From contig JBNLGQ010000029.1 of assembly GCA_050306135.1 (NCBI GenBank), positions 43,585 to 107,584 on the forward strand: a stretch of 64,000 nucleotides of DNA, read 5' to 3'. Each line of letters opens with the position of its first letter. Position 1 is the first letter of the stretch. Under the pieces are notes generated by a model, which was given only the letters and a program-made list of their open reading frames with translations, was not told the origin of the DNA and made no database searches. Of this stretch, positions 33,026 through 49,787 are shown piece after piece. A program made the translations under genes and the position numbers. The stretch is from Gammaproteobacteria bacterium. Its GTDB lineage: Bacteria; Pseudomonadota; Gammaproteobacteria; GCA-001735895.

Positions 33026-33985
33026 ATGGAACAACTCACTGACCTCAAAGCCATCCTTCATTCCAAACGGGCAAATATCTACTATCTGGAAAAATGCCGG
33101 GTGATGCAAAAAGACGGGCGAGTTCTTTATCTCACCGAAGCCAAAAACGAAAACCAGTACTGGAACATACCCATAGCCAACACCACCTGCATCCTGCTAG
33201 GGACAGGAACTTCAATAACTCAGGCAGCAATGAGAATGCTGGCCTCAGCCGGAGTCATGGTCGGCTTCTGTGGGGGCGGTGGCACGCCTTTACTGATGGC
33301 TACCGAAATAGAATGGCTAAGCCCGCAAAGCGAATACCGGCCCACAGAATACCTACAGGGCTGGATGCAATTCTGGTTTAATGATGACAAACGATTGCAA
33401 GCAGCCAAACAATTTCAATTAGCTCGTATTGATTACCTGAACACACTCTGGAGTAAAGACCGCGATCTAAAGTCCGAAGGCTTTGCTAGTGACTACCCCT
33501 TTATCCAACAGGCGATAGAAAACTGTCAGGCCAAAATCAAAGTCGCACCAAAAGTCAGCCAACTGCTACAGGCCGAAGCAGAGTTCACCAAACAACTCTA
33601 CAAACATGCCGCACACAGTACAAAATATGGGGACTTCACGCGCGAGCGAGAATCTGTAGATACCGCTAATGCCTTTTTAAATCATGGCAATTACCTGGCC
33701 TACGGACTAGCCGCAACAACTTTATGGGTGCTGGGTATACCACATGGCTTCGCCGTAATGCATGGTAAAACGAGGCGTGGCGCACTGGTTTTCGACATAG
33801 CCGATCTCATCAAAGACGCCATCGTCCTGCCCTGGGCGTTTATTTGTGCCAAAGAAGGAGCCAGTGAACAGGAATTCCGTCAGCAATGCCTGCAGGCGTT
33901 TACCGACCATAAGGCTCTGGATTTTATGTTTGATCAGGTGAAGGCAGTAGCTCTCAAACAGGACTGGGTGGATATACGGTCATGA
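33026..33985 (+). CDS. cas1: CRISPR integrase Cas1, type I-F
   Basis: The match to P. aeruginosa Cas1 is very close: 'ILHSKRANIYYL', 'YWNIPIANTT', 'LLGTGTSITQAAMR', 'GVMVGFCGGGGTPL', 'LTPQSEYRPTEYLQ', 'NHGNYLAYGLAATTLWVLGIPHG', and 'LVFDIADLIKD'. Confidence 0.92.
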   Translation: MEQLTDLKAILHSKRANIYYLEKCRVMQKDGRVLYLTEAKNENQYWNIPIANTTCILLGTGTSITQAAMRMLASAGVMVGFCGGGGTPLLMATEIEWLSPQSEYRPTEYLQGWMQFWFNDDKRLQAAKQFQLARIDYLNTLWSKDRDLKSEGFASDYPFIQQAIENCQAKIKVAPKVSQLLQAEAEFTKQLYKHAAHSTKYGDFTRERESVDTANAFLNHGNYLAYGLAATTLWVLGIPHGFAVMHGKTRRGALVFDIADLIKDAIVLPWAFICAKEGASEQEFRQQCLQAFTDHKALDFMFDQVKAVALKQDWVDIRS

Positions 33986-36900
33986 TGGTGACCTTTGTAT
34001 CCCAATGCGAAAAGAAAGCACTCAATCGAACTCGCAGAGTGCTGGATGCTTTTGCTGATCGTATTGGTGATAACACCTGGCAGACCGTGATAACGCAAGA
34101 GGGGCTCCTTGCAGTAAAAAAACTACTTAGAAAAACCGCAACAAAAAATACCGCAGTGAGCTGTCACTGGATACGCTCGCGATCCCGCAGTGAATTGATT
34201 TGGGTGGTGGGAAATAGAAGTAGGTTTAATGAGCAAGGTTATGTTCCGGTGAATCTAACTGATAGTCATATCGAACAATTTCAGGACAAGGTACAGTGGC
34301 AAATGTTGCCAGTTATTCAATACGCAGCAAGCATTTCAGGTTTGTTTCATGACTTCGGCAAAGCCAACAAACTGTTTCAGAAAAAAATTGACCCTCATGA
34401 CAAAGACTCATCAATATTTGAACCCTATCGGCATGAGTGGATTTCTTTACGCCTTTTTCAGGCGTTCGTAGGGGATAAAACTGATGCAGAATGGTTGGAC
34501 GAGTTGGCAGATATTAATCCTGATATCGTAGTAGCCTGCTTCCGTGATGGACTAGAAGGTGGCGTGGATAAAGAAAATAACCCATTTCTAAATCTACCTG
34601 CATTTGCGCGTATCGTAGCCTGGATTATTCTGTCACATCACCGCTTACCGTTATCGCCATCATGGCAAGACAATGAGAGGCCAGCCAGATTCGGCGAAAT
34701 GCAATCATGGTTGGAAATTGACTTTGATGCCGTCTGGAACTCCTACCGCTGTAAGGATGCAGACCAAAAAGAACGCATTGAAGACAATTGGCACTTTGCC
34801 GATAAATCACTGCCTTACTTCAGCCAACATTGGAGAGCCAAAGCCTGCACCACAGCGTCTGAGGCTAAGCAAAATCTCAGTTTATGGCTCAACGATAGTG
34901 CAAAAGACTGGATACTTGACCACTTGTTTGTCAGTCATTTGGCTCGCTTGTCAATGATGCTGGCGGATCACCATTATTCCTCTCGACCCAGAGTCACACA
35001 TAAATGGCGCAACCCCAATTACAAGGTATATGCCAACTCAGACCGATTTACAAAACAACTCAAGCAACAACTTGATGAACACTTAATTGGGGTTTCTTAC
35101 AATGCCGAGCGCATTGTGCGCAAGTTATCTAAGCTGAAAGATAGTCTGGAAAAACTCGGTGATAATGAATTTTTAAGTGAGCCGGTTTCGAAGGAGAATA
35201 AAGATGCTTTTGGTTGGCAAGATGCCGCCATAGAGGTTGTAAGAAAATGTGCCGCAGAAACAAGGGGAAAAGGTTTCTTCGGCATCAATATGGCATCCAC
35301 TGGTAAAGGCAAAACCCTCGCTAACGCCAAAATCATGTATGCACTGGGTGAAAATACAGGTGGTGTTCGTTTCAGCGTGGCACTAGGCTTGCGCACACTA
35401 ACCTTGCAAACAGGTCGCGAATTCCGCAAAGAATTAGATCTCAACGAAGAGCAGCTTGCGTTGTTAGTAGGTGGTACAGCGGTTAAACAATTATATGAAA
35501 ACAGCCAAAACCAACAACAAGGCAAGAGTGATCCTGAAGATATGGGAAGTGAATCAGGGCAGGAATATTTGCCAGATGAGCTAAAAGTGAATTACAGCGG
35601 GACTGTAACAAAGCATGCGCTCAGTGAGTGGACGAGAGAAAATCCGCGTATGGACAACATGCTATGCGCACCTGTGCTGGTAAGCACAATCGATCACCTT
35701 ATCCCCGCAACGGAAGGTGTTAGGGGAGGTAAACAAATCGCCCCGATGTTGCGCCTGTTAACCTCCGATCTTGTTTTGGACGAGCCGGATGATTTTGGCT
35801 TGGAGGATTTGCCAGCCTTATGTCGTTTGGTGCATTGGGCGGGAATGCTGGGCAGTCGTGTTTTGCTCTCTACTGCGACCATGCCGCCTGCTCTAGCCTA
35901 CGCATTATTTCAGGCATATAAAGCAGGCTGGGCACAGTATGCCAAAGCCAATCTGGCAGATTGGAATGGTGAAATTTGTTGTGCCTGGTTTGATGAGTTT
36001 AAGCGTAATGCAAGAACAACGAATGTATCTCAATTCAAAAATAGCGAAGCTAAGGGTTTGGCAGCCAAGGCGCTATTTATCAATGCACATAAATCCTTTG
36101 TGTCAGACCGGCTGGCTGAGCTAAGTAAAAACGACATTGCAAAGCGTCAGGGGGAAATCATCTACCCTGATGCACCCTTATCTCCAAGTCAAGCCATCGC
36201 CAAACTATGTCACAAAAAAATAGTTGAGCTGCACCATCAACACCATGTGCGACGAGAAGATGGTAAAACGGTGTCTATTGGTTTGATTCGTATGGCCAAC
36301 ATCAACCCATTGGTGGCAGTAGCACAGAAAATGCTGCAAATGGATGCACACCCAAACACCCGGATTCACTATTGCGTGTATCACAGCCGCTATCCCTTAG
36401 CATTACGCTCTTTCATTGAAAACCGTTTAGATACAGTGCTTTCTCGAAAGAAAGTGGATGAGTTCTGGCAACGCGAGGAAATCACCAGGCCGCTATCACA
36501 GTATCCTGACAGTAATCATCACATTTTTGTAGTCTTAGCTTCACCGGTTGCCGAGGTGGGGCGAGATCATGATTACGACTGGGCGATAGTTGAGCCAAGC
36601 TCGATGCGTTCGATAATTCAGTTGGCGGGGAGGATTTTGCGCCACCGCGAATTAGAAAAGCCGCTGAAGGCTTCCAATGTATTGATACTCAACAAAAACA
36701 CCAAAGTGCTGCAAAATGAGCAAGTTTGTTATTACCGACCAGGCTTTGAAAGCATTGGTTTAAGATTGTCACCACATGAACTGTTAGACACAAAACAGTT
36801 TGCGCAGATTGATGCATCTCCCCGTATTGAAGAGCCTGACTTAAATGGAATAGAAGTGACAGAAAAGGGGAAGTCTCCCTATATCAAATACTCCAATCTA

Positions 36901-37359
36901 AACGAGTTAGAACATGCTGCTCTTAAAAAACAGTTATTCACAGGAACTAAAAAAGCAAAGTTGTGGTGGTCAGAACAACCCCATTGGTGTGGCGAAATGC
37001 AAAAACAACAACGCTTTCGTGAGTCAAAGAAGGATGAGGCTTTTTACCTGTATGTGGATGACGAGTACAAAGAACCTAACTGGCGTTGGCTTAACGAAAA
37101 TGCGCGACCCGCCAAGTTTGGTGAGGTATCGAGTATCAACATAAAAAAAGTACCGGAATTTGGTAAAGGATTAAACAGTGGCTTCTGGTTTGAGATGGAT
37201 ACAAAGTCGATTTATAGCCAGCTAGCAGATGATTTTGGTGTTGAGTTACCTGAGGTTAGCTGCCGTTACGGCGAAGTACGAATAGTTGAATATGAAAATA
37301 ATGATGCTGAATATCTTTGGCATGAAGCTTTAGGGTTATTTCAGGAGGTTAATATCTAA
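33982..37359 (+). CDS. cas3: Cas2-Cas3 fusion (Cas2 domain + HD nuclease + SF2 helicase), type I-F
   Basis: It has an N-terminal Cas2-like segment ('VSQCEKKALNRTRRVLDAFADRIGDNTWQT...AVSCHWIRSRSRSELIWVVG'), an HD motif ('LFHDFGKANKLFQ'), Walker A ('MASTGKGKTLANAKI') and DExD ('LVLDEPDDF'). It overlaps cas1 by 4 nt. Confidence 0.92.
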   Translation: MMVTFVSQCEKKALNRTRRVLDAFADRIGDNTWQTVITQEGLLAVKKLLRKTATKNTAVSCHWIRSRSRSELIWVVGNRSRFNEQGYVPVNLTDSHIEQFQDKVQWQMLPVIQYAASISGLFHDFGKANKLFQKKIDPHDKDSSIFEPYRHEWISLRLFQAFVGDKTDAEWLDELADINPDIVVACFRDGLEGGVDKENNPFLNLPAFARIVAWIILSHHRLPLSPSWQDNERPARFGEMQSWLEIDFDAVWNSYRCKDADQKERIEDNWHFADKSLPYFSQHWRAKACTTASEAKQNLSLWLNDSAKDWILDHLFVSHLARLSMMLADHHYSSRPRVTHKWRNPNYKVYANSDRFTKQLKQQLDEHLIGVSYNAERIVRKLSKLKDSLEKLGDNEFLSEPVSKENKDAFGWQDAAIEVVRKCAAETRGKGFFGINMASTGKGKTLANAKIMYALGENTGGVRFSVALGLRTLTLQTGREFRKELDLNEEQLALLVGGTAVKQLYENSQNQQQGKSDPEDMGSESGQEYLPDELKVNYSGTVTKHALSEWTRENPRMDNMLCAPVLVSTIDHLIPATEGVRGGKQIAPMLRLLTSDLVLDEPDDFGLEDLPALCRLVHWAGMLGSRVLLSTATMPPALAYALFQAYKAGWAQYAKANLADWNGEICCAWFDEFKRNARTTNVSQFKNSEAKGLAAKALFINAHKSFVSDRLAELSKNDIAKRQGEIIYPDAPLSPSQAIAKLCHKKIVELHHQHHVRREDGKTVSIGLIRMANINPLVAVAQKMLQMDAHPNTRIHYCVYHSRYPLALRSFIENRLDTVLSRKKVDEFWQREEITRPLSQYPDSNHHIFVVLASPVAEVGRDHDYDWAIVEPSSMRSIIQLAGRILRHRELEKPLKASNVLILNKNTKVLQNEQVCYYRPGFESIGLRLSPHELLDTKQFAQIDASPRIEEPDLNGIEVTEKGKSPYIKYSNLNELEHAALKKQLFTGTKKAKLWWSEQPHWCGEMQKQQRFRESKKDEAFYLYVDDEYKEPNWRWLNENARPAKFGEVSSINIKKVPEFGKGLNSGFWFEMDTKSIYSQLADDFGVELPEVSCRYGEVRIVEYENNDAEYLWHEALGLFQEVNI

Positions 37360-38894
37360 TGAGCACAGGAAAAACAATGCATGATGCAATCCAGCATTTT
37401 ATTTTAGAGCGGAAAGCGAAGAAAGAAGAAGCTCTCCTTGCAACTAAGCTTGAGAAAGATAAGGATGGCGGGCTAAACAAAATTTTAATTAAAACCATCA
37501 AGTCTACGAAAAAAACAACTAATGATGATTTAAACAGCATTGCAACCAGAAAAAAGTCCAAAGACGAGACTTCACTAAATTTTCATGCCCAAAAATATCA
37601 TGATCTAATCACCTTGGCTGAAGGCAATCAAATAGATCTAGCGGAGTACAAAGAGACATATTTATTACAAAAACAAAAGGTGGATGATTCTCATCAGTTT
37701 GCTACGTGGTTGGATGATAATTGTAGATATGCAGAAGGTGCTTCGGTTGCAACACATGTGTCTAAGCTAACCCATTCATCCAATAAAGCATCTTGTTTTT
37801 TTGATCAAATTCATGACAAAAAATCAGGGTATGTTACAACGTCAATGATAAGCAAGCCGGTTGTCGATGGAGCTTACGATAATGCCAAGTATTCTCCAGT
37901 CGTCTCCCTGCTATTAGTTGAAAATGAAGGGCGATTTTTTTACGAAGATATCATCGAAGGTAAATATGATGGATTGCTAGGTTTTGAGGAGAACGATGAC
38001 CAAATAAATACATGGAGAACCGAGCTAAAAAAGTCAATTGATAAACCAAGCAAAGCAACTGACGGGTTATCTAAGCAAGTCTATTTTCCTTTGAAAAAAA
38101 TCTCCGTAAATTCCAACGATTGGCATTTACTCTCCGTGCTTGTTTCCTCTTCGATGGCACATTCGATCTTCAATATGACTGCATCAAAAGTGTTCAACGA
38201 CCATAATAAGTCTTTGAGGGATAAATATAGAGCTAAGTCTCTATACAGCCCCGAGACACTGATCAGCCACCCGAAAACAGCCACATTGATGGTGACTCAA
38301 AGCTCTCATCAAAATACTTCCCAACTGAATGGTGCACGCAGTGGTAGATTGATATTGACTTCATCCCAGCCACCCACATGGCAACGCCAAGTAACCCCCC
38401 CAATCTATCAAAACTCATGGTTTCGCTACGGCATTCCATACAGCACTATAAAAGAAGATATTAAATACTTACGTGAATTTTTATTACGTAATGACAGGTT
38501 AGAGTTGAGTACTCGTGACCCGAAAAAACATAAGTGGCTGGAAAGTTGGGGAGAGCAAATTCTTGATGAGGTGATGTATCAGGCCAACATCATTCAAGAG
38601 CTACCAGCAGGCTGGTCGGCAGTGGAGGACATCAAGCTCAAAAAAGCACATCAATATTTTCTTGATCCCTACCGAGATGATGTAGGCTTTCAGGGAGAGC
38701 GAGAGGCCACTGATTGGGAACCGGAAGTCTGCGCTGATTTTTCGCGCTGGTTGAATAATCATCTGAAAGGAAAAGACAAGGCCTTTTCCCCGCAACCAGA
38801 GCATAGTAAATTGTGGAAAAGTCTAATGGCTGCGGCTCTACGTGAATTGAAAGATACACAAAAATTCTCCTTTGAGAAGGAGGTAAACGCATGA
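37359..38894 (+). CDS. csy1: Csy1 / Cas8f, large subunit of the type I-F Cascade
   Basis: Blocks are shared with P. aeruginosa Csy1: 'KQVYFPL', 'LTSSQPPTWQRQVTPPIYQNSWF' (compare 'LPSLPPNWQRQNV...SSVF'), and 'FSRWLNNHL'. At 511 aa it is about 75 aa longer at the N-terminus than the 434-aa reference. Its start overlaps the cas3 stop (TAATG). Confidence 0.85.
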   Translation: MSTGKTMHDAIQHFILERKAKKEEALLATKLEKDKDGGLNKILIKTIKSTKKTTNDDLNSIATRKKSKDETSLNFHAQKYHDLITLAEGNQIDLAEYKETYLLQKQKVDDSHQFATWLDDNCRYAEGASVATHVSKLTHSSNKASCFFDQIHDKKSGYVTTSMISKPVVDGAYDNAKYSPVVSLLLVENEGRFFYEDIIEGKYDGLLGFEENDDQINTWRTELKKSIDKPSKATDGLSKQVYFPLKKISVNSNDWHLLSVLVSSSMAHSIFNMTASKVFNDHNKSLRDKYRAKSLYSPETLISHPKTATLMVTQSSHQNTSQLNGARSGRLILTSSQPPTWQRQVTPPIYQNSWFRYGIPYSTIKEDIKYLREFLLRNDRLELSTRDPKKHKWLESWGEQILDEVMYQANIIQELPAGWSAVEDIKLKKAHQYFLDPYRDDVGFQGEREATDWEPEVCADFSRWLNNHLKGKDKAFSPQPEHSKLWKSLMAAALRELKDTQKFSFEKEVNA

Positions 38895-40108
38895 GCCAAT
38901 ACATCTTACTCAATCGTATTAGAGTGCAAAATGCCAATGCGATAGCAGGCTTTACCTGGGGGTTTCCTGCGATAACGCATTTTCTTGGCTTTACCCATAA
39001 CCTGTCACGCAAACTAAGCCGGTCTGACAACTATTCCGGTATCAGCCTGACTGGTTGTGCAGTGATTGCGCATGAGCATCATGTGCATACCTATGGTAAA
39101 TATGGTGATCGATTCACTCAGGTTAAATCTTCATATATCTCAACACCTAAATTTGAAAAAGGCGTAATGAAAACGCCATCAATTATCGAAGAAGCAAAAA
39201 TGAACATGACGGTCTCTCTACTCATCAAGGTGGTGGGACGAATGGGTAATGCGACCTGGGTCGAACAGTTTACTACTTGGATAGAAAAGCAAAGCCATAT
39301 CCAGCGTTTGGCAGGCGGTACGATTTTAGACATCGCCGACGTAAAACTGCTTGATACCCACGAAAGGCGAGATCGTTACCAGCTTAAAGGTAAATTGTTG
39401 CCGGGCTTTGTACTTATGGATCGATCCAGCAGTTTGAAAAGCCGCTATCAGGTGTTGCAGAAAGAAAACCCCAACGCCGAATTACTAGACGCATGGCTGG
39501 ATTTTTCTGCATTCAAACAACAGGCTCGCCCAAAATACGATCAGATTTCAAAGTATCTGGACAAAGGCATTAAACAGGATGCAGCGACCTATGCCAGCTT
39601 GCTACACGATTGGCAAAAACACCTTGAGCATGTGCCTTATCAACAAGACAGCATCCCTGATTCATTGAAAGAGCATTTTTCAACACTTGATGCTAAAAAA
39701 TACAAGGCCTTGTTAGCGCAGTGGCAGCAATATCTGGAACCTAATGAGAAAACACCAGCCGATTGGGAGCGACTACCAAAACCCGAAGCCAGAGGTTATT
39801 TAGTGCCGTTGATGGTGGGCTACAAAGCTATCACCCCCGTTTACGACAATGCTGAAATTGCTAATACCCGCGATAGCGAAACCCCCGTTTGCTTTGTCGA
39901 GGCAGTACACAGTATTGGTGAATGGAAAAGTGCCCACCGTTTGCGCACGGAGGCTGATTTTGCCGAGAGTATTTGGCGCTATGACGACTATCAGGAACAT
40001 TGGTATTTGTGCAAGCAAGATATAGCACTTGAGACAATGGATGAACCTAACGAAACAACCACTGAAGAAGCAGTGATTAGTACCGACGATGATTATGAAG
40101 ATGACTAA
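38891..40108 (+). CDS. csy2: Csy2 / Cas5f, with an internal insertion and a polyacidic C-terminal tail
   Basis: It matches Csy2 in 'RIRVQNANAIAGFTWGFPAITHFLGF', 'LLPGFVLMDR', 'GYLVPLMVGYKAITPVY', and 'NTRDSETPVCFVEAVHSIGEWKSAHRL'. It is about 405 aa against about 327 in PA14 and ends in 'TTEEAVISTDDDYEDD'. Confidence 0.85.
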   Translation: MSQYILLNRIRVQNANAIAGFTWGFPAITHFLGFTHNLSRKLSRSDNYSGISLTGCAVIAHEHHVHTYGKYGDRFTQVKSSYISTPKFEKGVMKTPSIIEEAKMNMTVSLLIKVVGRMGNATWVEQFTTWIEKQSHIQRLAGGTILDIADVKLLDTHERRDRYQLKGKLLPGFVLMDRSSSLKSRYQVLQKENPNAELLDAWLDFSAFKQQARPKYDQISKYLDKGIKQDAATYASLLHDWQKHLEHVPYQQDSIPDSLKEHFSTLDAKKYKALLAQWQQYLEPNEKTPADWERLPKPEARGYLVPLMVGYKAITPVYDNAEIANTRDSETPVCFVEAVHSIGEWKSAHRLRTEADFAESIWRYDDYQEHWYLCKQDIALETMDEPNETTTEEAVISTDDDYEDD

Positions 40109-40117
40109 GGAGAAAGA

Positions 40118-41111
40118 AATGACGACCAAAGCGAAAGAAATTGACCTACCCAGTATGTTGGCATTTGAGCGAAAGCTGGAAGTGTCTGATGGACTGATGT
40201 TTGCTGGTAATTGGAGCGACCTTGCCGAAGAAAATGCTTGGGAGGCTATTAAGGTTGTGCCGCGTAAAAACCGCTCAACGCAAAGTGCTGCTGGCATTAA
40301 GGATGAGGAAAAATCTAAGCCAAACCCTGTTTCGGCAGATAATGATGATGCAAACCTGCCATATGACAAAGATACTCTAAAAGTCAGTTTCACTCTGCGT
40401 ATGATTGGGGATTTGGGCACTCCGTTCGGCTGCAATGACCCTGAATTCGAGAAAGCAATTCACAGCAAGGTAACTGAGTTTAAAGAACAAGGATTGAAAG
40501 AACTGGCACACCGCTATGCACAGAATATTGCCAGCGGGCGTTTCTTATGGCGTAACCGCATCTGTGCTGAAGAATTGCTGATTCAGGTCAGAATTAATCA
40601 TGGTGAGGATCTCATCGAACTTAATGGTTACGACTTCGCGTTAAATGATTTTGCGGCTAGCCGTCAAGACAACAAATTAGTCCAACTAACAGAGGCTATT
40701 TACCAAGGCTTGGTGGGTACACAAGATTTTGTTTTGCTGGAGGTTGATGCCTTTGTTCGCCTGGGCGCTGGTCAGCATGTGTTTCCATCGCAAGAAATGA
40801 ACATGGGCGATAAGAAAAAAGTGCTTTTCAAACTGGGAAAAGATAATAACCAGGCCGCTATGCATAGTGTGAAGTTAGGGAATGCTATTCGCACTATTGA
40901 TGATTGGTATCGCGAGAATGCTGAATTTCCGATTGCGGTAGAGCCCTATGGCTCAGTTACTCAGCGTGGCGAAGCCTACAGAAAAAGCAAAACAGACTTG
41001 TACACATTAATGTTGGACTGGGTGAATGATAAGCCTGTTGCAGACGAACAAAAATGCTATGTGTTAGCAAACCTGATACGTGGTGGCGTTTTTGGTGGAA
41101 AAAGTGAATAG
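40118..41111 (+). CDS. csy3: Csy3 / Cas7f, Cascade backbone subunit
   Basis: It is near-collinear with PA14 Csy3: 'LAFERKLEVSDGLMFAGNW', 'TLKVSFTLRMIGDLGTPFGCNDPEF', 'LAHRYAQNIASGRFLWRNR', 'VLLEVDAFVRLGAGQHVFPSQEM', 'IAVEPYGSVTQRGEAYR', and 'ANLIRGGVFGG'. The start is set at ATG 40118 behind an AGGAGA RBS. Confidence 0.9.
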
Positions 41112-41119
41112 GATCTAAG

Positions 41120-41671
41120 ATGAATCACTATTTCGAAATCAAAATACTACCCGACCCGGAGATACTGGACACAGTTCTGATGAACGCGGTTTACACCAAA
41201 CTCCACAAAGCCTTATGTGATCTGAACTCGACCGGTATTGGCGTTAGCTTTCCCAATAGGCAGAAGACTCTTGGCAATACGGTGCGATTACATGGTTCTG
41301 ATAAAGACCTGGATGACTTAATGAGGCTGAATTGGACAGGGGGTATGAGTGGATACTGCTCTATCAGTGATATCTTACCAGTACCTGATAATTCTAAGTT
41401 CCGCACCGTGTCGCGCAAGCAAACCACGATGAGTCAATCTAAGCTCAATCGGTTGTTAAAGCGTGGCTCCATCACTGAGGATGAGGTTAAAAATTACAAA
41501 GCGAAAATGTTTACCAAAGGTCTGGATAATCCTTATCTGGAATTACAAAGTGGTTCAAATGGACATAGACACCGTCGCTATATCGAATTTGGTGAGTTGT
41601 TAAACGAACCCGTCAGCGGCCAGTTTGACCAGTTCGGCCTATCCAAAACTGCGACTATCCCCTGGTTTTAA
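41120..41671 (+). CDS. csy4: Csy4 / Cas6f, pre-crRNA endoribonuclease
   Basis: 183 aa. 'MNHYFEIKILPDPE' parallels PA14 'MDHYLDIRLRPDPE'. 'IGVSFP' and the C-terminal 'YGLSKTATIPWF' (compare 'YGLSKGGFVPWF') are present. Confidence 0.9.
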   Translation: MNHYFEIKILPDPEILDTVLMNAVYTKLHKALCDLNSTGIGVSFPNRQKTLGNTVRLHGSDKDLDDLMRLNWTGGMSGYCSISDILPVPDNSKFRTVSRKQTTMSQSKLNRLLKRGSITEDEVKNYKAKMFTKGLDNPYLELQSGSNGHRHRRYIEFGELLNEPVSGQFDQFGLSKTATIPWF

Positions 41672-41985
41672 CTTACAGTAGCCAGATTGTAGCCACCTGC
41701 CTCAATCTGGCTTAATCCTCTATCTGAGAGGTATAACATGGCTAAGGCAACCTCACCGATCCGATTACAGCAGGGGCTCATGCAGCAGACAGAATCAACA
41801 ACACGGCTTTTCATCGAAATATTCCGAGAAGATTGAATGTTGGACTAACTTTTTACCAAAGTTTTTATCGTTCTTTAACAATCATTAAAAATCAATCACT
41901 TACAGGGGATGTGTTTTTCATTGGTAAAACAGTAGAAATCCCCTTAAGTGTTTGTTGTGCAATGGATAAATATCAATTATCTTCA
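41672..41985 (+). promoter_or_regulatory. CRISPR leader (AT-rich, about 314 bp) between csy4 and the first repeat
   Basis: This AT-rich non-coding stretch lies directly 5' of repeat 1. The degenerate terminal repeat is at the far end of the array, so this side is the leader-proximal end. Confidence 0.7.
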
Positions 41986-44653
41986 GTTCACTGCCGCACA
42001 GGCAGCTTAGAAAGGTGCCTTGGGCACGAGCAATCAATTTTGAGAGTTCACTGCCGCACAGGCAGCTTAGAAATGCCTCCAGCACCTTTTTATATTTATC
42101 ACCGAGTTCACTGCCGCACAGGCAGCTTAGAAAATAATATACTTTTGCTATATGAAGTTTCGGAGTTCACTGCCGCACAGGCAGCTTAGAAATTCGAGCT
42201 TAACGGTGTCACCCGCGTCGGCCAGTTCACTGCCGCACAGGCAGCTTAGAAATGGTTACGGTACCGCTCCGACATCACACGGACCGTTCACTGCCGCACA
42301 GGCAGCTTAGAAATATGCAAGTGCAACCTCGTTTACTGTTGTAGGGTTCACTGCCGCACAGGCAGCTTAGAAATATCGAATAAATAACCGCTATCTGGCG
42401 GAATTGTTCACTGCCGCACAGGCAGCTTAGAAAAAGCTATGGACACAGGGCAGAGGATTTTCCTCGTTCACTGCCGCACAGGCAGCTTAGAAAATTAACT
42501 ATAAACTCATGAGATGGCATGCAGGGTTCACTGCCGCACAGGCAGCTTAGAAATCGTGTTGCCTACGTATAGCCGCCATAACTTCGTTCACTGCCGCACA
42601 GGCAGCTTAGAAAATCGGCGTAGTCGATTGCTCGCTGTATCGGCCGTTCACTGCCGCACAGGCAGCTTAGAAAATTGGATGGCATCGCGTCATTTGAGTC
42701 TACAGGTTCACTGCCGCACAGGCAGCTTAGAAAAGTCAATGAAGCAGGGGTTGGTATAGCGATTGGTTCACTGCCGCACAGGCAGCTTAGAAACGGATGC
42801 GCATTCATTGAAAACAGCCCAATGCGTTCACTGCCGCACAGGCAGCTTAGAAATTTACTCATCTAATGAAAGAGCTGGGCGAATTGTTCACTGCCGCACA
42901 GGCAGCTTAGAAATCCTAATACTGATTGGCAGCTTGCGGCAACTAGTTCACTGCCGCACAGGCAGCTTAGAAAACCCACAGATACCATCTGTACGTGGAG
43001 TCATTGTTCACTGCCGCACAGGCAGCTTAGAAAACAGTAACCTCACATCAGAAATTCTGCAAACCGTTCACTGCCGCACAGGCAGCTTAGAAATGAACAC
43101 GCGACATTTGAGGATGGCGGGAATGGTTCACTGCCGCACAGGCAGCTTAGAAATTCTTCAATCGCATCGAGTACTGCGGTTACAGGTTCACTGCCGCACA
43201 GGCAGCTTAGAAATACAAAATGGAATACTTCATATATGACAACTGGTTCACTGCCGCACAGGCAGCTTAGAAAATTACCAGCAAAGACAGACTGCAGCTG
43301 ATTACGTTCACTGCCGCACAGGCAGCTTAGAAATGCTATAAAGGCAGCGTGGTGTTTTCAGTCGGGTTCACTGCCGCACAGGCAGCTTAGAAAATTGTCA
43401 ACGCCATGCAGCCAGCGTACCCACGGTTCACTGCCGCACAGGCAGCTTAGAAATCAATAGCCATTAGCTCCTTACGACGCATAATGTTCACTGCCGCACA
43501 GGCAGCTTAGAAATTGTTAGAGTCCCCGATAAACCGACTATACATGTTCACTGCCGCACAGGCAGCTTAGAAAATCAACTAGAGTATCTGCATCAGGTAA
43601 TTCTGGTTCACTGCCGCACAGGCAGCTTAGAAACCTACTGGACGCGATCATCACCAGCGAGTAACGTTCACTGCCGCACAGGCAGCTTAGAAACAGCAGA
43701 TCCAGCGTCAGATCGTTGTTATCGCGTTCACTGCCGCACAGGCAGCTTAGAAAACCTTCAGCATTTGCTGATAGCGACCCGACATGTTCACTGCCGCACA
43801 GGCAGCTTAGAAACAGTGGATTGCCGGTAGTACCGCACTCAACCCGTTCACTGCCGCACAGGCAGCTTAGAAATGTGTGTTCTGCACGCATTCAGAAAGA
43901 AAGAAGTTCACTGCCGCACAGGCAGCTTAGAAAATGTACCTAGTTCATCTAAAACTAAAAGCCCAGTTCACTGCCGCACAGGCAGCTTAGAAAAGCTCAG
44001 GACCCGCGACATCAGTGGGTACCGGGTTCACTGCCGCACAGGCAGCTTAGAAAAATTCAGATAAATGGTACTGTACGCGAATCGAGTTCACTGCCGCACA
44101 GGCAGCTTAGAAATCTGAAACAACATCTCTAGCATGTGTACCACCGTTCACTGCCGTACAGGCAGCTTAGAAACAAATTCCGTAATTAGTAGCAGAATTT
44201 TTAGCGTTCACTGCCGCACAGGCAGCTTAGAAAGTTAAGGTCTTTTGGCCAGGTCATCAGAAACAGTTCACTGCCGCACAGGCAGCTTAGAAATAGTAGA
44301 ATTAACTAGCTATATCATCGATAAAGTTCACTGCCGCACAGGCAGCTTAGAAAATTGATTCGCACAGCTCAAGGAATGTAATTACGTTCACTGCCGCACA
44401 GGCAGCTTAGAAATAGATAGGTTCGAGTCGCCGCGGACGCCCCTTGTTCACTGCCGCACAGGCAGCTTAGAAAAGTTTTTGATTGCACTCTGGCAAAACT
44501 TTTTAGTTCACTGCCGCACAGGCAGCTTAGAAAAAGTCGATTCAACTTTAGCAGTAGAACCATGCGTTCACTGCCGCACAGGCAGCTTAGAAAACAGTAC
44601 AATTTAAAACCAGTAGCCAGATTATGTTAACTGCCGCACAGGCAGCTTAAAAC
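41986..44653 (+). CRISPR. Type I-F CRISPR array: 45 copies of the 28-bp repeat GTTCACTGCCGCACAGGCAGCTTAGAAA with 44 spacers of 31-33 nt
   Basis: The repeats were counted directly: 60-nt periodicity from 41986 through 44626. The repeat has the I-F (Yersinia-type) stem 'CTGCCGCACAGGCAG'. One internal repeat carries a SNP (44146-44173, 'CTGCCGTACAGGCAG'). The last repeat (44626-44653) is degenerate: 'GTTAACTGCCGCACAGGCAGCTTAAAAC'. Confidence 0.97.
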
Positions 44654-45024: not shown

Positions 45025-46782
45025 GTGAAAGGCATGATCAATGTCGAGGCAATGCTGGATAATTTTTTACCGGACTTTAGAAACAAAAAGAAACGTCTGT
45101 ATAAAACAACAGTAGCTGTATTAAAAAAGATCCTGCATCAGGATGAAATCAATCAGTTTATTGACAGCCATAAACACCTTGAAGGCGTGGAGTTTCTGGA
45201 TGCGGTGCTGGACCATTTTGATTTTAAATATAGTCTGTCCAATCGCGACCGCGCTAATATCCCCGCACAGGGGCGTGTCATTATTGTGGCGAATCATCCA
45301 TTAGGTTCTCTGGATGGGCTGGCTTTATTGAAAATGGTTTCCGAGATCCGTCCTGATGTGAAAATTGTGGCGACTACCGTGCTGAGTCAGGTTAAACCGC
45401 TGGAGAATCTGTTTCTTAGCGTGGATAACCTGTCGAGTAAAGCGAGCCATATTGCCAGCCTGAAAAAGATTCTGGCTGCCTTGCAGCAGGAACAGGCGGT
45501 GATTATGTTTCCTACGGGAGAGGTTTCCCGCATTCGTCCACAGGGTGTGCGTGATGGCAAGTGGAAAACGGGCTTTGTCAGCATGGCTTACAAATCTAAC
45601 TCACCAGTGGTTCCTGTTTTCATTAATGGGAAGAATTCTACGCTGTTTTATAGCATGTCTACTCTGTATAAACCATTGGGTACCCTGATGCTGGTGATGG
45701 AGATGTTTAATAAGCAGGATCAGGAAATATCTTTTCGCGTGGGTAAACCAATTCCTGTTAATTCAATGAAGTTGCTGGATCTGCCACCTAAAAAAGTTGC
45801 AAAGCGGATGCGTAAGCAGGTTTATCGTTTGGCAAAAAATTTTAAGAAGCCACTATTCGAAACCATTGAAAATATTGTGCATCCGGTTAATCGTAAAAAT
45901 ATCCGCGATGAGCTTAAGCAATCTGAGTTTCTGGGTGCCACTCAGGATGGTATGGAAATCTATTTATTTGACTACCGATCAAATTCCAGTGTGATCCGTG
46001 AAATAGGAAGGTTAAGAGAGCTGTCGTTTCGACAGGTGCATGAAGGTACAGGCAAATCTATCGATGTTGATGAGTTTGATCGTTACTATCGCCATCTGGT
46101 GTTATGGGATGACAAGCAACTGGAGATCGTTGGCACTTATCGTATTGGTGAAGGTGCGCGTATCCTGGCGCAACATGGCATACAGGGGTTTTATACCAAT
46201 ACACTGTTTGAGTTACAGGGCTGTATGGTGGGTTATCTTGAAAAATCAATTGAACTGGGGCGTAGTTTTATCCAGCCACGTTACTGGGGTAAGCGTAGTT
46301 TGGATTACCTTTGGTATGGTATAGGTGCTTATCTTCAGAAACACCCGCAGGTTGAATATATGATTGGTCCTGTCACCTTGAGTGCTTCCTACCCTGAACA
46401 GGCGAAGCATGAAATTGTAAACTTCTATCAGCAATTATTTGGCAATAGCGATAATCTGGTTAAACCCAGACTGCCATATGATTACCCGGTTAGCAGTGAC
46501 TATGCTGAGTATCAGCAGGTATCTCAGGAATCAGATTATAAGCAGGCTTATTCACGTTTGAAAGTGAAGCTGGATGAGTTAGGGGTCAGAGTACCGACCC
46601 TGTTCAAACAGTATGTTGAGCTATGTAAGCCGGGTGGTTGTGAATTTCTGGGATTCAATGTGGATCCGGAATTTTCAAACTGTATAGATGCGATGATACT
46701 GGTACATATTGATGCGGTTTATGAAAAGAAGCGAGATCGTTATATCAATGTACATAATGTTAAAGTTGAGCAAGCTGCTTAG
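45025..46782 (+). CDS. Bifunctional acyltransferase: N-terminal PlsC-type (HX4D) domain fused to a C-terminal OlsB/GNAT-like N-acyltransferase domain. It is OlsF-like and a candidate ornithine/amino-lipid synthase.
   Basis: 585 aa with an 'VIIVANHPLGSLDG' HX4D motif and a 'FPTGE' block typical of lysophospholipid acyltransferases. The roughly 280-aa C-terminal half is of the hemolysin/OlsB-like acyltransferase type ('GTYRIGEGARIL'). This architecture matches the published OlsF of Serratia and Flavobacterium as I recall it. Confidence 0.5.
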   Translation: MKGMINVEAMLDNFLPDFRNKKKRLYKTTVAVLKKILHQDEINQFIDSHKHLEGVEFLDAVLDHFDFKYSLSNRDRANIPAQGRVIIVANHPLGSLDGLALLKMVSEIRPDVKIVATTVLSQVKPLENLFLSVDNLSSKASHIASLKKILAALQQEQAVIMFPTGEVSRIRPQGVRDGKWKTGFVSMAYKSNSPVVPVFINGKNSTLFYSMSTLYKPLGTLMLVMEMFNKQDQEISFRVGKPIPVNSMKLLDLPPKKVAKRMRKQVYRLAKNFKKPLFETIENIVHPVNRKNIRDELKQSEFLGATQDGMEIYLFDYRSNSSVIREIGRLRELSFRQVHEGTGKSIDVDEFDRYYRHLVLWDDKQLEIVGTYRIGEGARILAQHGIQGFYTNTLFELQGCMVGYLEKSIELGRSFIQPRYWGKRSLDYLWYGIGAYLQKHPQVEYMIGPVTLSASYPEQAKHEIVNFYQQLFGNSDNLVKPRLPYDYPVSSDYAEYQQVSQESDYKQAYSRLKVKLDELGVRVPTLFKQYVELCKPGGCEFLGFNVDPEFSNCIDAMILVHIDAVYEKKRDRYINVHNVKVEQAA

Positions 46783-47270
46783 TTTGTAGCTTCATTCCCT
46801 TACTCAGCTCAGGCATCCTGCTTCGCTCTAACACCTATACCGTGTAGGTGTCCTTCGTGGGTGCAGATCCTGTAATTCTGCCGATGGAAAAATGAATAGC
46901 TGACATATAATCATTCCAGTTGAACATACTCTATTGATCCAATGTGGTTATTCCACATAAGATGCGAGGATTAACGGGCTCGTTGATATATAGCTGCCGT
47001 TCGAGTAATTAAGGGAATTAAGTAAACTATCCTCGAAATCGCTCCGGAATTGAATTTGCCCATCACTCCGACACATAGCCAAAATAAAACTAATTTAAAA
47101 GTGTCTAAATTCTTTACAGGTAAAAATCCAGCGGTATCGGTTTTTGTAAAAAAAATATACACCTAAAGTTAGACGGAAAATGGTATTCCATTGAAACTAT
47201 GGGACTAAAGGATTGCGGTACCTTAATTGCATGAAGGATTTATTGTGTAAACTGGAAGGAGTGAGGAACT

Positions 47271-47972
47271 ATGAAAAAAAGAATAACTAGTACTGTAGGT
47301 GTATTCACTGTTTTAACATTGATCACGATAAATGCTTATGCGGCCCCTTTTCGTCTACTGGGTGAAGTGGCCGATACCGGTGCTGCAAGCGCTGGCAGTG
47401 AGTCTGCTATTTATAACTATGATACCAATGCTGATATGCACTCTGGCACTTACAGCAGTTGGTCTTATACAGGATTCGACTGGAACTCAAGCTATTCAAC
47501 TGCAGGATTGGCATACGATGGCAAATACCGCCTAATAGGTGAAGTGGCCAACACTGGTGCTGCAAGCGCAGGTAATGAATCTGCTATTTATACCTATGAT
47601 TCCTACGCGGATATGCAGTCGGGCAATTACAGCAGCTGGTCTTATACAGGATTTGACTGGATTTCAAGTTATTCAACCGCGGGATTGGCATATGATGGCA
47701 AATACCGTCTGTTAGGTGAAGTAGCCGATACCGGTACTGCAAGCGCAGGTAGTGAATCTGCTATTTATACCTATGATACGTTCGATGATATGCTGTCTGG
47801 AACTTATAGTAGCTGGTCCTATACAGGGTTCGACTGGATTTCAAGTTATTCAACCGCGGGATTGGCATACGAATCTATACCAACATCTGAAGTACCAGAA
47901 CCAACGAGCCTTTTACTTATGGGGCTAGGGTTAGTAGGACTAGGATTTGCTCGTAAAAAACGAATCGTATAG
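47271..47972 (+). CDS. Secreted PEP-CTERM protein with three tandem repeats of about 59 aa
   Basis: It has a signal peptide. It then has three near-identical units ('RLLGEVADTGAASAGSESAIYTYD...SGTYSSWSYTGFDWISSYSTAGLAYDGKY'). The C-terminal sorting signal is 'VPEPTSLLLMGLGLVGLGFARKKR' (PEP + TM + basic). Confidence 0.75.
   Translation: MKKRITSTVGVFTVLTLITINAYAAPFRLLGEVADTGAASAGSESAIYNYDTNADMHSGTYSSWSYTGFDWNSSYSTAGLAYDGKYRLIGEVANTGAASAGNESAIYTYDSYADMQSGNYSSWSYTGFDWISSYSTAGLAYDGKYRLLGEVADTGTASAGSESAIYTYDTFDDMLSGTYSSWSYTGFDWISSYSTAGLAYESIPTSEVPEPTSLLLMGLGLVGLGFARKKRIV
47346..47880 (+). repeat. Three tandem direct repeats of about 177 bp inside the PEP-CTERM gene
   Basis: The DNA-level periodicity corresponds to the three protein repeats. 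There are only a few substitutions between copies. Confidence 0.8.
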
Positions 47973-47983
47973 TCTCATAACAA

Positions 47984-48008
47984 CCCCGCCTGGTGCGGGG
48001 TTTTTTTA
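47984..48008 (+). terminator. Rho-independent terminator downstream of the PEP-CTERM gene
   Basis: 'CCCCGCCTGGTGCGGGG' forms a GC-rich hairpin followed by TTTTTTT. Confidence 0.8.
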
Positions 48009-48231
48009 TTTCTAAACCTTAGCTATCGATTATTTTTATTTTGTGAATGTGCAACCAACTAGAGTTGATAGGGAGCGTTAATAGTTGCCTGATCTCATTT
48101 ACCTGAACGATCGTTTTTAGACATTGCAAAAATTGAGCTAGTCTTTATTGAAGGGTTATAGTTGGTATATTTTTAACTGTAGTCGCGCACAATAACAATG
48201 ACTGCTTCGAACGATTTACTTAAAGGGTCCA

Positions 48232-48852
48232 TCATTTTGTTGTCAGGCTTTCATCATACCAGTCACTCATATCATCAATCATTTCACCCTTAATCAGGTA
48301 ATAAGGTGCTTTATGGTAAATATAGAAATCATGGAATGGATCGGTCAATATTTTGCTAAACCATACCAGACCCGATTGAATGCCCATGATGAAGAACAGA
48401 TGAACAGTTCTAAAGATTAATGCACCAGCGCCTATAAAAAGCCACAGCACTGAGGTGTTATAAATAAACTCATTCAGCGAGGTGTGAGGCTGTAGTAGAC
48501 CGAAAAAGTCAGGGTTGAAATACAGTACAAGAGGGGCGGCTACCCATACTGATAACAGTACAACCTTTCTACGTAGATTATAACCCACCTTAATACTTTC
48601 CTTGTATGCCTGACTGGCATCGTTGATCTCGTCGTACTCCAACGGTTCAAAGAAAAAATGTCCGCTTTGACGTAATACCATGGCCAGTAACCAACCGATC
48701 ATTACGGCTGCCACGGGATTGATAAAGATCAGTACGTAACTGGCCATAAAGCAGATACAGCTCAAAAAGTGTAAAAACTGATTGATTCGGTTCTGGTGAT
48801 AGTAACGATGATCATCCCAGCGTTGCTGACGTAGTTCCTGCATAAAAGTCAT
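48232..48852 (-). CDS. DUF962 / Mpo1-like integral membrane protein, last gene of the lipid operon
   Basis: 206 aa with four TM helices. It has an N-terminal 'YYHQNRINQFLH' (HxxN-type) segment and a 'GHFFFEP' motif, resembling the Mpo1/YGL010w family as I recall it. Confidence 0.45.
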   Translation of the reverse strand: MTFMQELRQQRWDDHRYYHQNRINQFLHFLSCICFMASYVLIFINPVAAVMIGWLLAMVLRQSGHFFFEPLEYDEINDASQAYKESIKVGYNLRRKVVLLSVWVAAPLVLYFNPDFFGLLQPHTSLNEFIYNTSVLWLFIGAGALIFRTVHLFFIMGIQSGLVWFSKILTDPFHDFYIYHKAPYYLIKGEMIDDMSDWYDESLTTK

Positions 48853-48894
48853 AATGATTACCTCTGTTTAATAGTTTATTAAGTGATGAAGTTT

Positions 48895-49773: not shown

Positions 49774-49787
49774 CGTGTGACAGATGC

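What the first reader, a model, noticed from the sequence alone, without database searches (positions are those of the whole stretch)
33026..44653. Complete type I-F CRISPR-Cas locus with a large 45-repeat array; Cas8f and Cas5f carry extra segments
cas1, cas2-3, csy1, csy2, csy3 and csy4 are all intact, translationally coupled, and followed by a leader and a 44-spacer array. That argues for an active system with a long acquisition history. Csy1 is about 75 aa longer at the N-terminus than the P. aeruginosa reference. Csy2 carries an insertion of about 70 aa between the conserved 'LLPGFVLMDR' and 'GYLVPLMVGY' blocks, plus a polyacidic tail 'TEEAVISTDDDYEDD'. Acidic DNA-mimic tails on Cascade subunits are unusual. 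The tail could modulate non-target DNA binding or Cas2-3 recruitment. This is speculation.
Basis: partly seen in the sequence, partly recalled or inferred. Interest (0 to 1): 0.5.

Follow-up and report, generated by a model that had tools for sequence, protein, structure and literature searches.

The report
Ordinary intact type I-F1 CRISPR-Cas locus
This is a complete, standard type I-F1 CRISPR-Cas immune locus with 44 spacers in an Amphritea-like marine bacterium, and the "extra" pieces on two of its proteins are shared by a large, widespread sub-lineage of such systems, not peculiar to this genome.

Summary
Window 33026-44653 carries cas1, cas2/3, csy1 (cas8f), csy2 (cas5f), csy3 (cas7f) and csy4 (cas6f). 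All pass NCBIfam type I-F equivalog cut-offs. A 314-bp leader follows, then 45 repeats of 28 nt and 44 unique spacers.

Relative to solved Csy complexes, Csy1 has about 65 extra N-terminal residues. Csy2 has a 70-aa insertion (res 214-283) and a 30-aa acidic tail.

- The insertion is present without gaps in all 120 best database homologues (51-87% identity), which come from many orders of Proteobacteria.
- It is present in 12 of 131 representative clusters at 50% identity.
- The long Csy1 is equally widespread, and also occurs with short Csy2.
- Acidic tails with an aromatic tip occur in both long and short Cas5f.

AlphaFold2 predicts the insertion as a confident four-helix subdomain, the Csy1 extension as helical, and the tail as disordered. 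No solved Cas5f has the insertion, and it matches no Pfam or PDB family. The sub-lineage is therefore structurally uncharacterised, but this locus is only a new member of it.

No convincing protospacer was found, so the PAM is unconfirmed. Interest is low.

The parts
33026..33985 (+). cas1 (Cas1f, 319 aa)
   Evidence: TIGR03637 at 503.5 bits against a cut-off of 150, full-length match. Its stop overlaps the cas2/3 start (ATGA).
33982..37359 (+). cas2/3 fusion (Cas3f, 1125 aa)
   Evidence: TIGR02562 at 1081 bits against 566, profile positions 1-1110 of 1110 matched. Pfam Cas3_I-F_Cas2 and Cas3-like_C_2 are recorded on the identical protein.
37359..38894 (+). csy1 / cas8f (511 aa)
   Evidence: TIGR02564 at 202 bits against 169. 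Sequence matches to Csy1 of 9irf, 9jpf and PA14. The AF2 model (pLDDT 86) matches Cas8f chains by Foldseek.
37359..37673 (+). N-terminal helical extension of Cas8f (residues 1-105)
   Evidence: No counterpart in PA14 Csy1 before its residue 41. AF2 predicts helices H7-28, H38-50, H55-62, H72-89 and H95-111 at pLDDT mostly 83-95. Present in all 118 long homologues. Also present in loci with short Csy2. No Pfam match.
38891..40108 (+). csy2 / cas5f (405 aa)
39530..39739 (+). four-helix insertion in Cas5f (residues 214-283)
   Evidence: Absent from every solved Cas5f. AF2 predicts H217-226, H231-246, H257-264 and H272-282 at pLDDT 93-97. W241, W278 and Y281 inside it, and R213, P214 and W292 at its edges, are invariant across 80 homologues. 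No PDB or Pfam match.
40013..40105 (+). acidic, disordered C-terminal tail of Cas5f (residues 375-405)
   Evidence: 13 D/E against 1 K/R. AF2 pLDDT is below 50. The sequence varies among homologues but the acidic composition and hydrophobic tip recur.
40119..41111 (+). csy3 / cas7f (330 aa from the likely start; the maximal ORF begins at 40089)
   Evidence: TIGR02566 at 298 bits against 158. AAGGAG lies 6 nt before the ATG at 40119. Gene callers give 330 aa.
41120..41671 (+). csy4 / cas6f (183 aa)
   Evidence: TIGR02563 at 208 bits against 36, full-length match.
41672..41985 (+). leader (314 bp; last 150 bp are 71% A+T), with an IHF-consensus match at 41890-41902
   Evidence: The trailer repeat is degenerate, so the leader lies on the csy4 side. 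AATCAATCACTTA is one of only 8 WATCAANNNNTTR matches in the 64 kb and ends 83 bp before repeat 1. The blocks AAAATCAA and TTTCATTGGTAAAA are shared with the relative L025.
41986..44653 (+). CRISPR array: 45 repeats of 28 nt, 44 spacers
   Evidence: The repeat folds into a 5-bp stem with a 5-nt loop, -8.6 kcal/mol.

Best explanation
This is a canonical, intact chromosomal type I-F1 CRISPR-Cas adaptive immune locus. The host is an Amphritea-like (Oceanospirillaceae) marine gammaproteobacterium.

Inferred from family knowledge:
- Cas6f cleaves the pre-crRNA at the base of the 5-bp repeat hairpin. This gives 60-nt crRNAs with an 8-nt CUUAGAAA 5' handle, a 32-nt spacer and a 20-nt 3' hairpin.
- Cas8f, Cas5f, six Cas7f and Cas6f assemble on the crRNA into the Csy surveillance complex.
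- Cas8f reads the PAM.
- R-loop formation recruits Cas2/3 to degrade the target.
- Cas1-Cas2/3 inserts new spacers at the leader-proximal repeat.

Shown here:
- The Cas8f N-terminal helical extension and the Cas5f four-helix insertion are lineage traits of a large I-F1 sub-lineage.
- The two features are separable, because long Cas8f also occurs with short Cas5f.
- The acidic Cas5f tail is a disordered, compositionally conserved feature found across type I-F.

Inferred only: in PA14 the Cas5f/Cas8f-NTD heterodimer anchors the crRNA 5' handle and, together with Cas7f.6, forms the DNA vise. The two additions therefore most likely enlarge this 'tail' module of the complex rather than add a new activity.
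For: Gene content and array:
- All six Cas families score above the type I-F equivalog cut-offs with full-length matches.
- The array has 45 repeats that all match Rfam CRISPR-DR4, and 44 unique spacers, 42 of them 32 nt long. The repeat forms a hairpin.

Folds:

Distribution of the long forms:
- All 120 best Csy2 homologues are 376-406 aa and have no gap across the insertion.
- Sixteen species-representative genomes have the same six-gene operon with long Csy1 and long Csy2. They include Oceaniserpentilla, Teredinibacter, Sulfuriflexus, Reinekea, Marinomonas, Psychromonas, Methylococcales, Methylophilaceae and Oligoflexales.
- The linker length at the insertion site is bimodal across the 131 representatives at 50% identity plus the window's own protein: 20-49 aa in 114 and 86-107 aa in 13.
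- Loci L035 and L036 carry short Csy2 with a homologous long Csy1.

Host and context:
- The closest named relative is Amphritea pacifica, at 83% identity for Csy1, with its Csy2 in the same 90% cluster.
- Flanking genes are ordinary chromosomal genes and the G+C content of the locus equals that of the window.

PA14 mechanism: Rollins et al., bioRxiv 10.1101/453720.
Against: There is no direct evidence of expression or interference.

No protospacer was found that could confirm a CC PAM. The only hit is 29/32 to the dcm gene of Marinobacter phage AS1, at E = 0.2 and with CG rather than CC upstream. Plasmids, five IMG/VR scans and two metagenome scans gave nothing.

Where the insertion and the N-extension sit in the assembled complex was not modelled, because no multimer prediction was available.
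Confidence: 0.92

Rival explanations
1. One reading: the Cas8f extension, the Cas5f insertion and the polyacidic tail are unusual, genome-specific innovations that give this system a special property.
For: They are absent from every solved Csy complex (PA14, 9irf, 9jpf, ICP1, I-F-HNH, I-F3) and from the NCBIfam Csy1 and Csy2 profiles. The window's tail is at the acidic extreme, with a net charge of -12 over 31 residues.
Against: The insertion is gap-free in all 120 top homologues and in 12 representative clusters at 50% identity, across many orders. Long Csy1 is present in all 118 homologues over 470 aa among the 120 best hits. Acidic tails with an aromatic tip also occur in short-form Cas5f of Photobacterium, Legionella, Psychrobacter, Vitreoscilla and Alysiella.
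Confidence: 0.03
2. The acidic, disordered Cas5f tail is a functional short linear motif. It would act either as an in-cis DNA mimic that occupies the positively charged R-loop-binding channel until the non-target strand displaces it, or as a docking peptide for Cas2/3.
For: Of the long-form homologues, 71% have a net charge of -4 or lower in the last 20 residues. Ninety-nine percent have F, Y, W, I or L within the last 4 residues, against the roughly 67% I estimate from typical amino-acid frequencies (not computed). So the composition and the tip are conserved while the sequence is not. In PA14, acidic residues of the Cas8f C-terminal helical bundle (D331, E427-D434) occupy the arginine-rich helix of Cas5f in the apo state, which is a precedent for charge-complementary autoinhibition. 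The equivalent Cas5f helix here (residues 155-172) keeps 5 K/R.
Against: The tail has pLDDT below 50 and no conserved sequence. Some clade members have a neutral tail or none (P0126, P0128, P0133). I found no anticorrelation between Cas8f C-terminal charge and Cas5f tail charge across 25 loci. No structural or biochemical data exist.
Confidence: 0.2
3. The locus is a silent or decaying remnant, and the array is a fossil.
For: No protospacer match was found in phage, plasmid, IMG/VR or metagenome collections. The pattern scan found no sigma-70-like promoter in the leader.
Against: All six ORFs are full-length against their profiles. Forty-three of 45 repeats are identical and only the trailer repeat is degenerate. 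The leader keeps conserved blocks and an IHF-like site. Missing targets are expected for a poorly sampled marine host.
Confidence: 0.06

Closest known systems
Pseudomonas aeruginosa PA14 type I-F1 Csy complex (PDB 5uz9, 6b44, 6ne0)
   Different: Identity is only about 23-30%. PA14 Cas8f is 434 aa and lacks the roughly 65-aa N-terminal helical extension. PA14 Cas5f is 327 aa and lacks the 70-aa four-helix insertion.
Csy complex of PDB 9irf (source organism not determined here)
   Different: Its Csy2 is 310 aa: residues 203 to 205 of the chain span the site where the window has residues 214-282. Its Csy1 is 443 aa and lacks about 50 N-terminal residues.
Annotated long-form type I-F systems of Amphritea pacifica, Teredinibacter, Oceaniserpentilla, Vibrio cincinnatiensis, V. 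navarrensis, V. metoecus, Paraglaciecola and others
   Same: Same architecture with long Csy1 (about 490-515 aa) and long Csy2 (about 385-405 aa). The related contig L025, whose Csy1 and Csy2 are 87% and 84% identical to the window's, has the identical repeat.
   Different: They differ only in sequence (51-87% identity for Csy2), spacer content and genomic location. L025 lies next to TonB-receptor, transglutaminase and HU genes, not the window's LysR and Fur genes.
Types I-F2 and I-F3 (the I-F2 definition is from memory; the I-F3 Cas8/Cas5 fusion is seen)
   Same: Related Cas5f, Cas7f and Cas6f folds.
   Different: The window has separate cas8f and cas5f genes, together with cas1 and cas2/3. 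It has no Cas8/Cas5 fusion, and no tniQ was seen among the ORFs next to the locus that were scanned.

Membership tests
Type I-F1 CRISPR-Cas | Cas1 of the I-F (YPEST) type | tested here: met
   TIGR03637 at 503.5 bits against a cut-off of 150.
Type I-F1 CRISPR-Cas | Fused Cas2-Cas3 (Cas2/3) with HD nuclease and helicase domains | tested here: met
   TIGR02562 at 1081 bits against 566, covering profile positions 1-1110 of 1110. The HD and helicase-core sub-models also hit. Pfam Cas3_I-F_Cas2 is recorded on the identical protein.
Type I-F1 CRISPR-Cas | Separate large subunit Cas8f (Csy1), Cas5f (Csy2) and Cas7f (Csy3) | tested here: met
   TIGR02564, TIGR02565 and TIGR02566 are all above their cut-offs. 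The folds are confirmed. The three are separate genes.
Type I-F1 CRISPR-Cas | Cas6f (Csy4) endoribonuclease and 28-nt hairpin repeats of the I-F family | tested here: met
   TIGR02563 at 208 bits against 36. Rfam CRISPR-DR4 matches all 45 repeats. The repeat forms a 5-bp stem.
Type I-F1 CRISPR-Cas | 5'-CC PAM on the non-target strand | tested here: inconclusive
   Only one weak protospacer candidate was found (29/32, E = 0.2), and it is preceded by CG. All other searches were empty.
Type I-F1 CRISPR-Cas | crRNA-guided interference and spacer acquisition in vivo | not testable with these tools
   This needs RNA-seq and interference or adaptation assays.
Long-form I-F1 sub-lineage (Cas5f with a helical insertion) | Homologous insertion of about 70 aa between the LDAWLDF and GYLVP blocks, with conserved W241, H244, P249-Y250, W278, Y281 and W292 | tested here: met
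   The alignment of 80 homologues shows these positions invariant or at least 90% conserved. Twelve representative clusters carry the same motif pattern.
Type I-F3 (transposon-associated) or I-F2 | Cas8/Cas5 fusion with tniQ and no cas1 or cas2/3 (I-F3); no Cas8f (I-F2) | tested here: not met
   Separate csy1 and csy2 are present together with cas1 and cas2/3. Neighbouring ORFs are housekeeping genes.

The most novel reading that the evidence does not exclude
The long-form I-F1 sub-lineage builds a Csy complex with an enlarged 'tail'. This sub-lineage combines a Cas8f N-terminal helical domain, a Cas5f four-helix subdomain and an acidic tail with an aromatic tip. No solved structure contains these elements. 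The enlarged tail could measurably change PAM-proximal DNA clamping, R-loop locking, Cas2/3 recruitment or sensitivity to anti-CRISPRs that target the tail. The window would be one representative of this sub-lineage, not its discovery.
Probability: 0.3. Interest if true: 0.4.

Novelty: new member of a known kind. Interest (0 to 1): 0.18.

Why it matters
The locus itself matters little. It adds one more intact I-F1 system, with 44 spacers of unknown target, to a poorly sampled marine genus.

The useful by-product is a clear description of the sub-lineage it belongs to. That sub-lineage covers 12 of 131 representative Cas5f clusters at 50% identity and is found in Oceanospirillales, Vibrionales, Alteromonadales, Cellvibrionales, methanotrophs and others. 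It carries a confidently folded helical subdomain in Cas5f and a helical N-terminal domain in Cas8f. Both are missing from every solved Csy structure and from the curated profiles.

Anyone using PA14 as the structural template for these systems should know that the tail module differs. This applies to anti-CRISPR range prediction and to genome-editing tools for Vibrio or Shewanella-like hosts.

Tried and rejected
1. Sequencing error or a mis-called csy2 stop. Rejected: the identical protein is on 9 contigs, and the tail is conserved in relatives at 79-87% identity.

2. The insertion and the Cas8f extension as an obligatorily coupled pair. Rejected: L035 (Csy2 354 aa, Csy1 505 aa) and L036 (335 aa, 534 aa) have the homologous Cas8f N-extension without the Cas5f insertion.

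3. The idea that the acidic tail moved from the Cas8f C-terminus, where PA14 has it, to Cas5f. Not supported: Csy1 C-termini are about neutral in both long-form and short-form loci, and Cas5f tails are acidic in both.

4. Origin of the insertion. A profile of 27 insertion sequences against PDB sequences gave a best E of 1.2. Pfam gave a best E of 0.011, below the gathering score. The Cas8f N-extension gave no Pfam hit.

5. Monophyly of the long form. A neighbour-joining tree on core columns puts 10 long forms in one clade, but P0125 and P0133 sit beside short forms. This could mean secondary losses or tree noise, and I did not resolve it.

6. Spacer targets and PAM. I ran all 44 spacers against phages (one marginal hit) and plasmids (none). 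Four different spacers (one in two pattern forms) were run against IMG/VR and two against JGI metagenomes, some with every sixth base degenerate. All were empty. No self-target with 7 or fewer mismatches exists in the window.

7. Strain comparison of arrays. The only other contig that carries the array (L022, GCA_050297215.1) has the same array, with 2 single-base differences inside it (4 in the whole 12.5 kb). The relative L025 ends at its first repeat.

8. The small ORF in the leader (41738-41836, 32 aa). It is not conserved in L025, so it is probably spurious.

9. Literature. No paper in the library cites 9IRF or 9JPF. The Shewanella xiamenensis Sh95 I-F1 paper does not say whether its Cas5f is the long form.
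Full report
**Observation**

The region 33026-44653 contains six co-directional ORFs. Each matches its NCBIfam type I-F equivalog well above the curated cut-off and over the full profile length.

| Gene | Model | Bits | Cut-off |
|---|---|---|---|
| cas1 (Cas1f) | TIGR03637 | 503.5 | 150 |
| cas2/3 (Cas3f) | TIGR02562 | 1081 | 566 |
| csy1 | TIGR02564 | 202 | 169 |
| csy2 | TIGR02565 | 269 | 154 |
| csy3 | TIGR02566 | 298 | 158 |
| csy4 | TIGR02563 | 208 | 36 |

- The junctions cas1/cas2-3, cas2-3/csy1 and csy1/csy2 are ATGA, TAATG and ATGA overlaps.
- csy3 most likely starts at 40119. An AAGGAG site precedes that ATG, and independent gene calls give 330 aa. The maximal ORF begins earlier, at 40089.
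- A 314-bp leader follows csy4.
- The array spans 41986-44653 with 45 repeats of 28 nt. Forty-three are identical, repeat 37 has one loop substitution, and the terminal repeat has three changes.
- There are 44 spacers (42 of 32 nt, one of 31, one of 33), none duplicated.
- All 45 repeats pass Rfam CRISPR-DR4.
- The repeat folds into the expected 5-bp stem with a 5-nt loop.

**The extra segments are real**

- Against solved Csy complexes, Csy2 aligns in two blocks, residues 1-213 and 283-378. Residues 214-282 have no counterpart in 9irf_A (310 aa) or PA14 Csy2 (327 aa).
- Csy1 aligns from residue 106 to residue 41 of PA14 Csy1, and from residue 88 to residue 36 of 9irf_J. That is about 50-65 extra N-terminal residues.
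- The last 31 residues of Csy2 hold 13 D/E and 1 K/R.
- A frameshift or assembly artefact is excluded. The identical protein is called on nine contigs from several runs, and relatives at 79-87% identity end in ...DDDYDDN or ...DDDYDDY.

**They are not peculiar to this genome**

- All 120 best Csy2 hits in the 5.8-billion-protein collection (51-87% identity) are 376-406 aa. None has a gap across the insertion.
- Their sources include Amphritea pacifica, Oceaniserpentilla, Teredinibacter, Sulfuriflexus, Paraglaciecola, Vibrio cincinnatiensis, V. navarrensis, Pseudohongiellaceae and SAR324.
- Sixteen species-representative genomes carry the same cas1-cas2/3-csy1-4 operon with long Csy2 (385-397 aa) and long Csy1 (478-546 aa as maximal ORFs). 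They additionally include Reinekea, Marinomonas, Psychromonas, Oceanospirillum, Neptuniibacter, Thalassotalea, Methylococcales, Methylophilaceae, Oxalobacteraceae and Oligoflexales.
- In an exhaustive HMMER scan of cluster representatives at 50% identity, the length between the conserved F205 and G302 blocks is bimodal: 20-49 aa in 114 and 86-107 aa in 13 of the 132 aligned sequences (131 representatives plus the window's own protein).
- Besides the window's own protein, eleven of the thirteen long representatives share its motif pattern (ARP...W..HL..PY...IP...YF...LL.QW..Y..P..KT.A.W). One, P0144, has an unrelated 107-aa insert at the same site. Several short forms carry low-complexity acidic inserts of 45-64 aa there. 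The site is therefore an insertion hot spot.
- Csy1 behaves the same way. Of the 120 best hits, 118 are longer than 470 aa, and the N-terminal region aligns with few gaps apart from one loop at residues 31-45. They include Vibrio metoecus, Endozoicomonas and Teredinibacter purpureus.

**Structure predictions**

- AlphaFold2 on an 80-sequence alignment gives Csy2 a mean pLDDT of 79.
- The insertion is the most confident part of that model, at pLDDT 93-97. It forms four helices: 217-226, 231-246, 257-264 and 272-282.
- The tail (residues 377-405) and the thumb (residues 70-99) are below pLDDT 50.
- Every solved Cas5f is 327 aa or shorter.
- W241, W278 and Y281 within the insertion, and R213, P214 and W292 at its edges, are invariant, so it is a folded, selected subdomain.
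- Neither a profile of the insertion nor its sequence matches any PDB chain or Pfam family at a meaningful E-value.
- The Csy1 model has a mean pLDDT of 86. Residues 1-122 form six helices, mostly at pLDDT 83-95. The remainder matches Cas8f chains.

**Are the two additions coupled?**

- Every long-Csy2 locus I examined also has long Csy1.
- Short forms on plasmids and in the PDB pair Csy1 of 418-473 aa with Csy2 of 297-354 aa.
- Two loci from short-Csy2 lineages close to the long clade break the pairing. L035 has Csy2 of 354 aa with Csy1 of 505 aa. L036 has 335 aa with 534 aa.
- Their Csy1 aligns with the window's from residues 4 and 11 onward.
- The Cas8f extension is therefore older or broader than the Cas5f insertion, and the two are separable.
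- A neighbour-joining tree of core columns places 10 long forms in one clade and 2 beside short forms. This is compatible with one gain plus losses, but I did not resolve it.

**The tail**

- Across long-form homologues the tail sequence is not conserved, but its character is.
- Seventy-one percent have a net charge of -4 or lower in the last 20 residues.
- Ninety-nine percent have F, Y, W, I or L among the last four residues. Typical endings are ...DDDIYS...NPDDDF and ...EILDLS.
- Short-form Cas5f proteins end similarly...EYNEDY in Photobacterium...SNDDY in Legionella...QQQDF in Psychrobacter and ...DDNLFS in Alysiella.
- An acidic tail on Cas5f is therefore a family-wide tendency, and the window sits at the acidic end of it.
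- In PA14, Rollins et al. describe an arginine-rich helix of Cas5f (D166-R179). [quoted passage not shown]
- That gives a plausible model in which an acidic Cas5f tail plays a similar charge-complementary role. I found no anticorrelation between Cas8f C-terminal charge and Cas5f tail charge, and nothing else tests the model. I give it about 0.2.

**Host, context and activity**

- The closest named relative is Amphritea pacifica, at 83% identity for Csy1 and with its Csy2 in the same 90% cluster.
- A near-identical contig is in GCA_050297215.1. It differs at 4 positions in 12.5 kb and carries the same array.
- Flanking genes are ordinary chromosomal genes: Fur, LysR, cytochrome c peroxidase, GGDEF, acyltransferase, a PEP-CTERM protein, Lhr helicase and photolyase.
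- G+C content is 44% in the cas operon, the spacers and the whole window alike.
- A related contig (L025, whose Csy1 and Csy2 are 87% and 84% identical to the window's) has the same repeat, but the locus lies in a different neighbourhood.
- The leader contains one of only eight IHF-consensus matches in the 64 kb. It ends 83 bp upstream of repeat 1.
- Intact genes, uniform repeats and a degenerate trailer repeat are consistent with an active system, but this is indirect evidence.

**Targets**

- The 44 spacers gave a single marginal phage hit: spacer 23 matches the dcm gene of Marinobacter phage AS1 at 29/32, with E = 0.2 and CG rather than CC upstream.
- There were no plasmid hits, no hits in five IMG/VR scans or two metagenome scans, and no self-target in the window.
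- The PAM remains unconfirmed.

**Verdict**

This is a textbook type I-F1 locus and a new member of a known, widely distributed long-form sub-lineage. The one point of wider interest is that this sub-lineage's Cas5f/Cas8f tail module has never been seen in a structure. That is a property of hundreds of annotated systems, not of this window.

Noticed in passing
Csy2 residues 205-302 (window 39503-39796); proteins P0144, P0160, P0165, P0184, P0257, P0265: The loop between the LDAWLDF and GYLVP blocks of Cas5f is an insertion hot spot across type I-F. P0144 carries an unrelated 107-aa insert there, and several others carry low-complexity acidic or polar inserts of 45-64 aa.
   Followed up: partly
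L035:2487-5065 and L036:1291-3899: Loci with a short Cas5f (354 and 335 aa) have a long Cas8f (505 and 534 aa) whose N-terminus is homologous to the window's. The two additions are therefore evolutionarily separable.
   Followed up: yes
window 41738-41836 (+): A 32-codon ORF (MAKATSPIRLQQGLMQQTESTTRLFIEIFRED) with a GAGAGG upstream lies in the csy4-array leader. It is not conserved in the relative L025, so it is probably spurious.
   Followed up: partly
window 41890-41902 (+): AATCAATCACTTA matches the IHF consensus WATCAANNNNTTR and ends 83 bp upstream of repeat 1. It is one of only 8 such matches in the 64 kb. The nearby blocks AAAATCAA and TTTCATTGGTAAAA are shared with L025.
   Followed up: partly
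L025:1-13598: A related contig (Csy1 and Csy2 87% and 84% identical to the window's) carries the same I-F1 operon and an identical repeat. It sits next to TonB-dependent receptor, transglutaminase and HU genes, and its csy4-array gap is about 800 bp rather than 314 bp. This suggests the locus has moved or the neighbourhood has been rearranged.
   Followed up: no
window 43274-43305 (spacer 23): Spacer 23 matches the DNA cytosine-5 methyltransferase gene of Marinobacter phage AS1 (MK088078.1) at 29/32, with E = 0.2. The two bases upstream are CG, not the expected CC.
   Followed up: partly
window 44146-44173 (repeat 37): A single C-to-T change in the hairpin loop gives GTTCACTGCCGTACAGGCAGCTTAGAAA. 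From memory, this is the repeat variant typical of Pectobacterium or Yersinia-type I-F arrays.
   Followed up: no
window 45025-54229: Downstream of the array lies a fused acyltransferase/GNAT protein, a PEP-CTERM protein, phosphatidylserine decarboxylase, a 906-aa glycosyltransferase and a 574-aa class-III aminotransferase. This may be an envelope or exopolysaccharide cluster.
   Followed up: no
window 15963-20267 (+): A 1434-aa Lhr-type large helicase with DEAD, DEAD_assoc and several Lhr winged-helix domains. It is ordinary and unrelated to the CRISPR locus.
   Followed up: no
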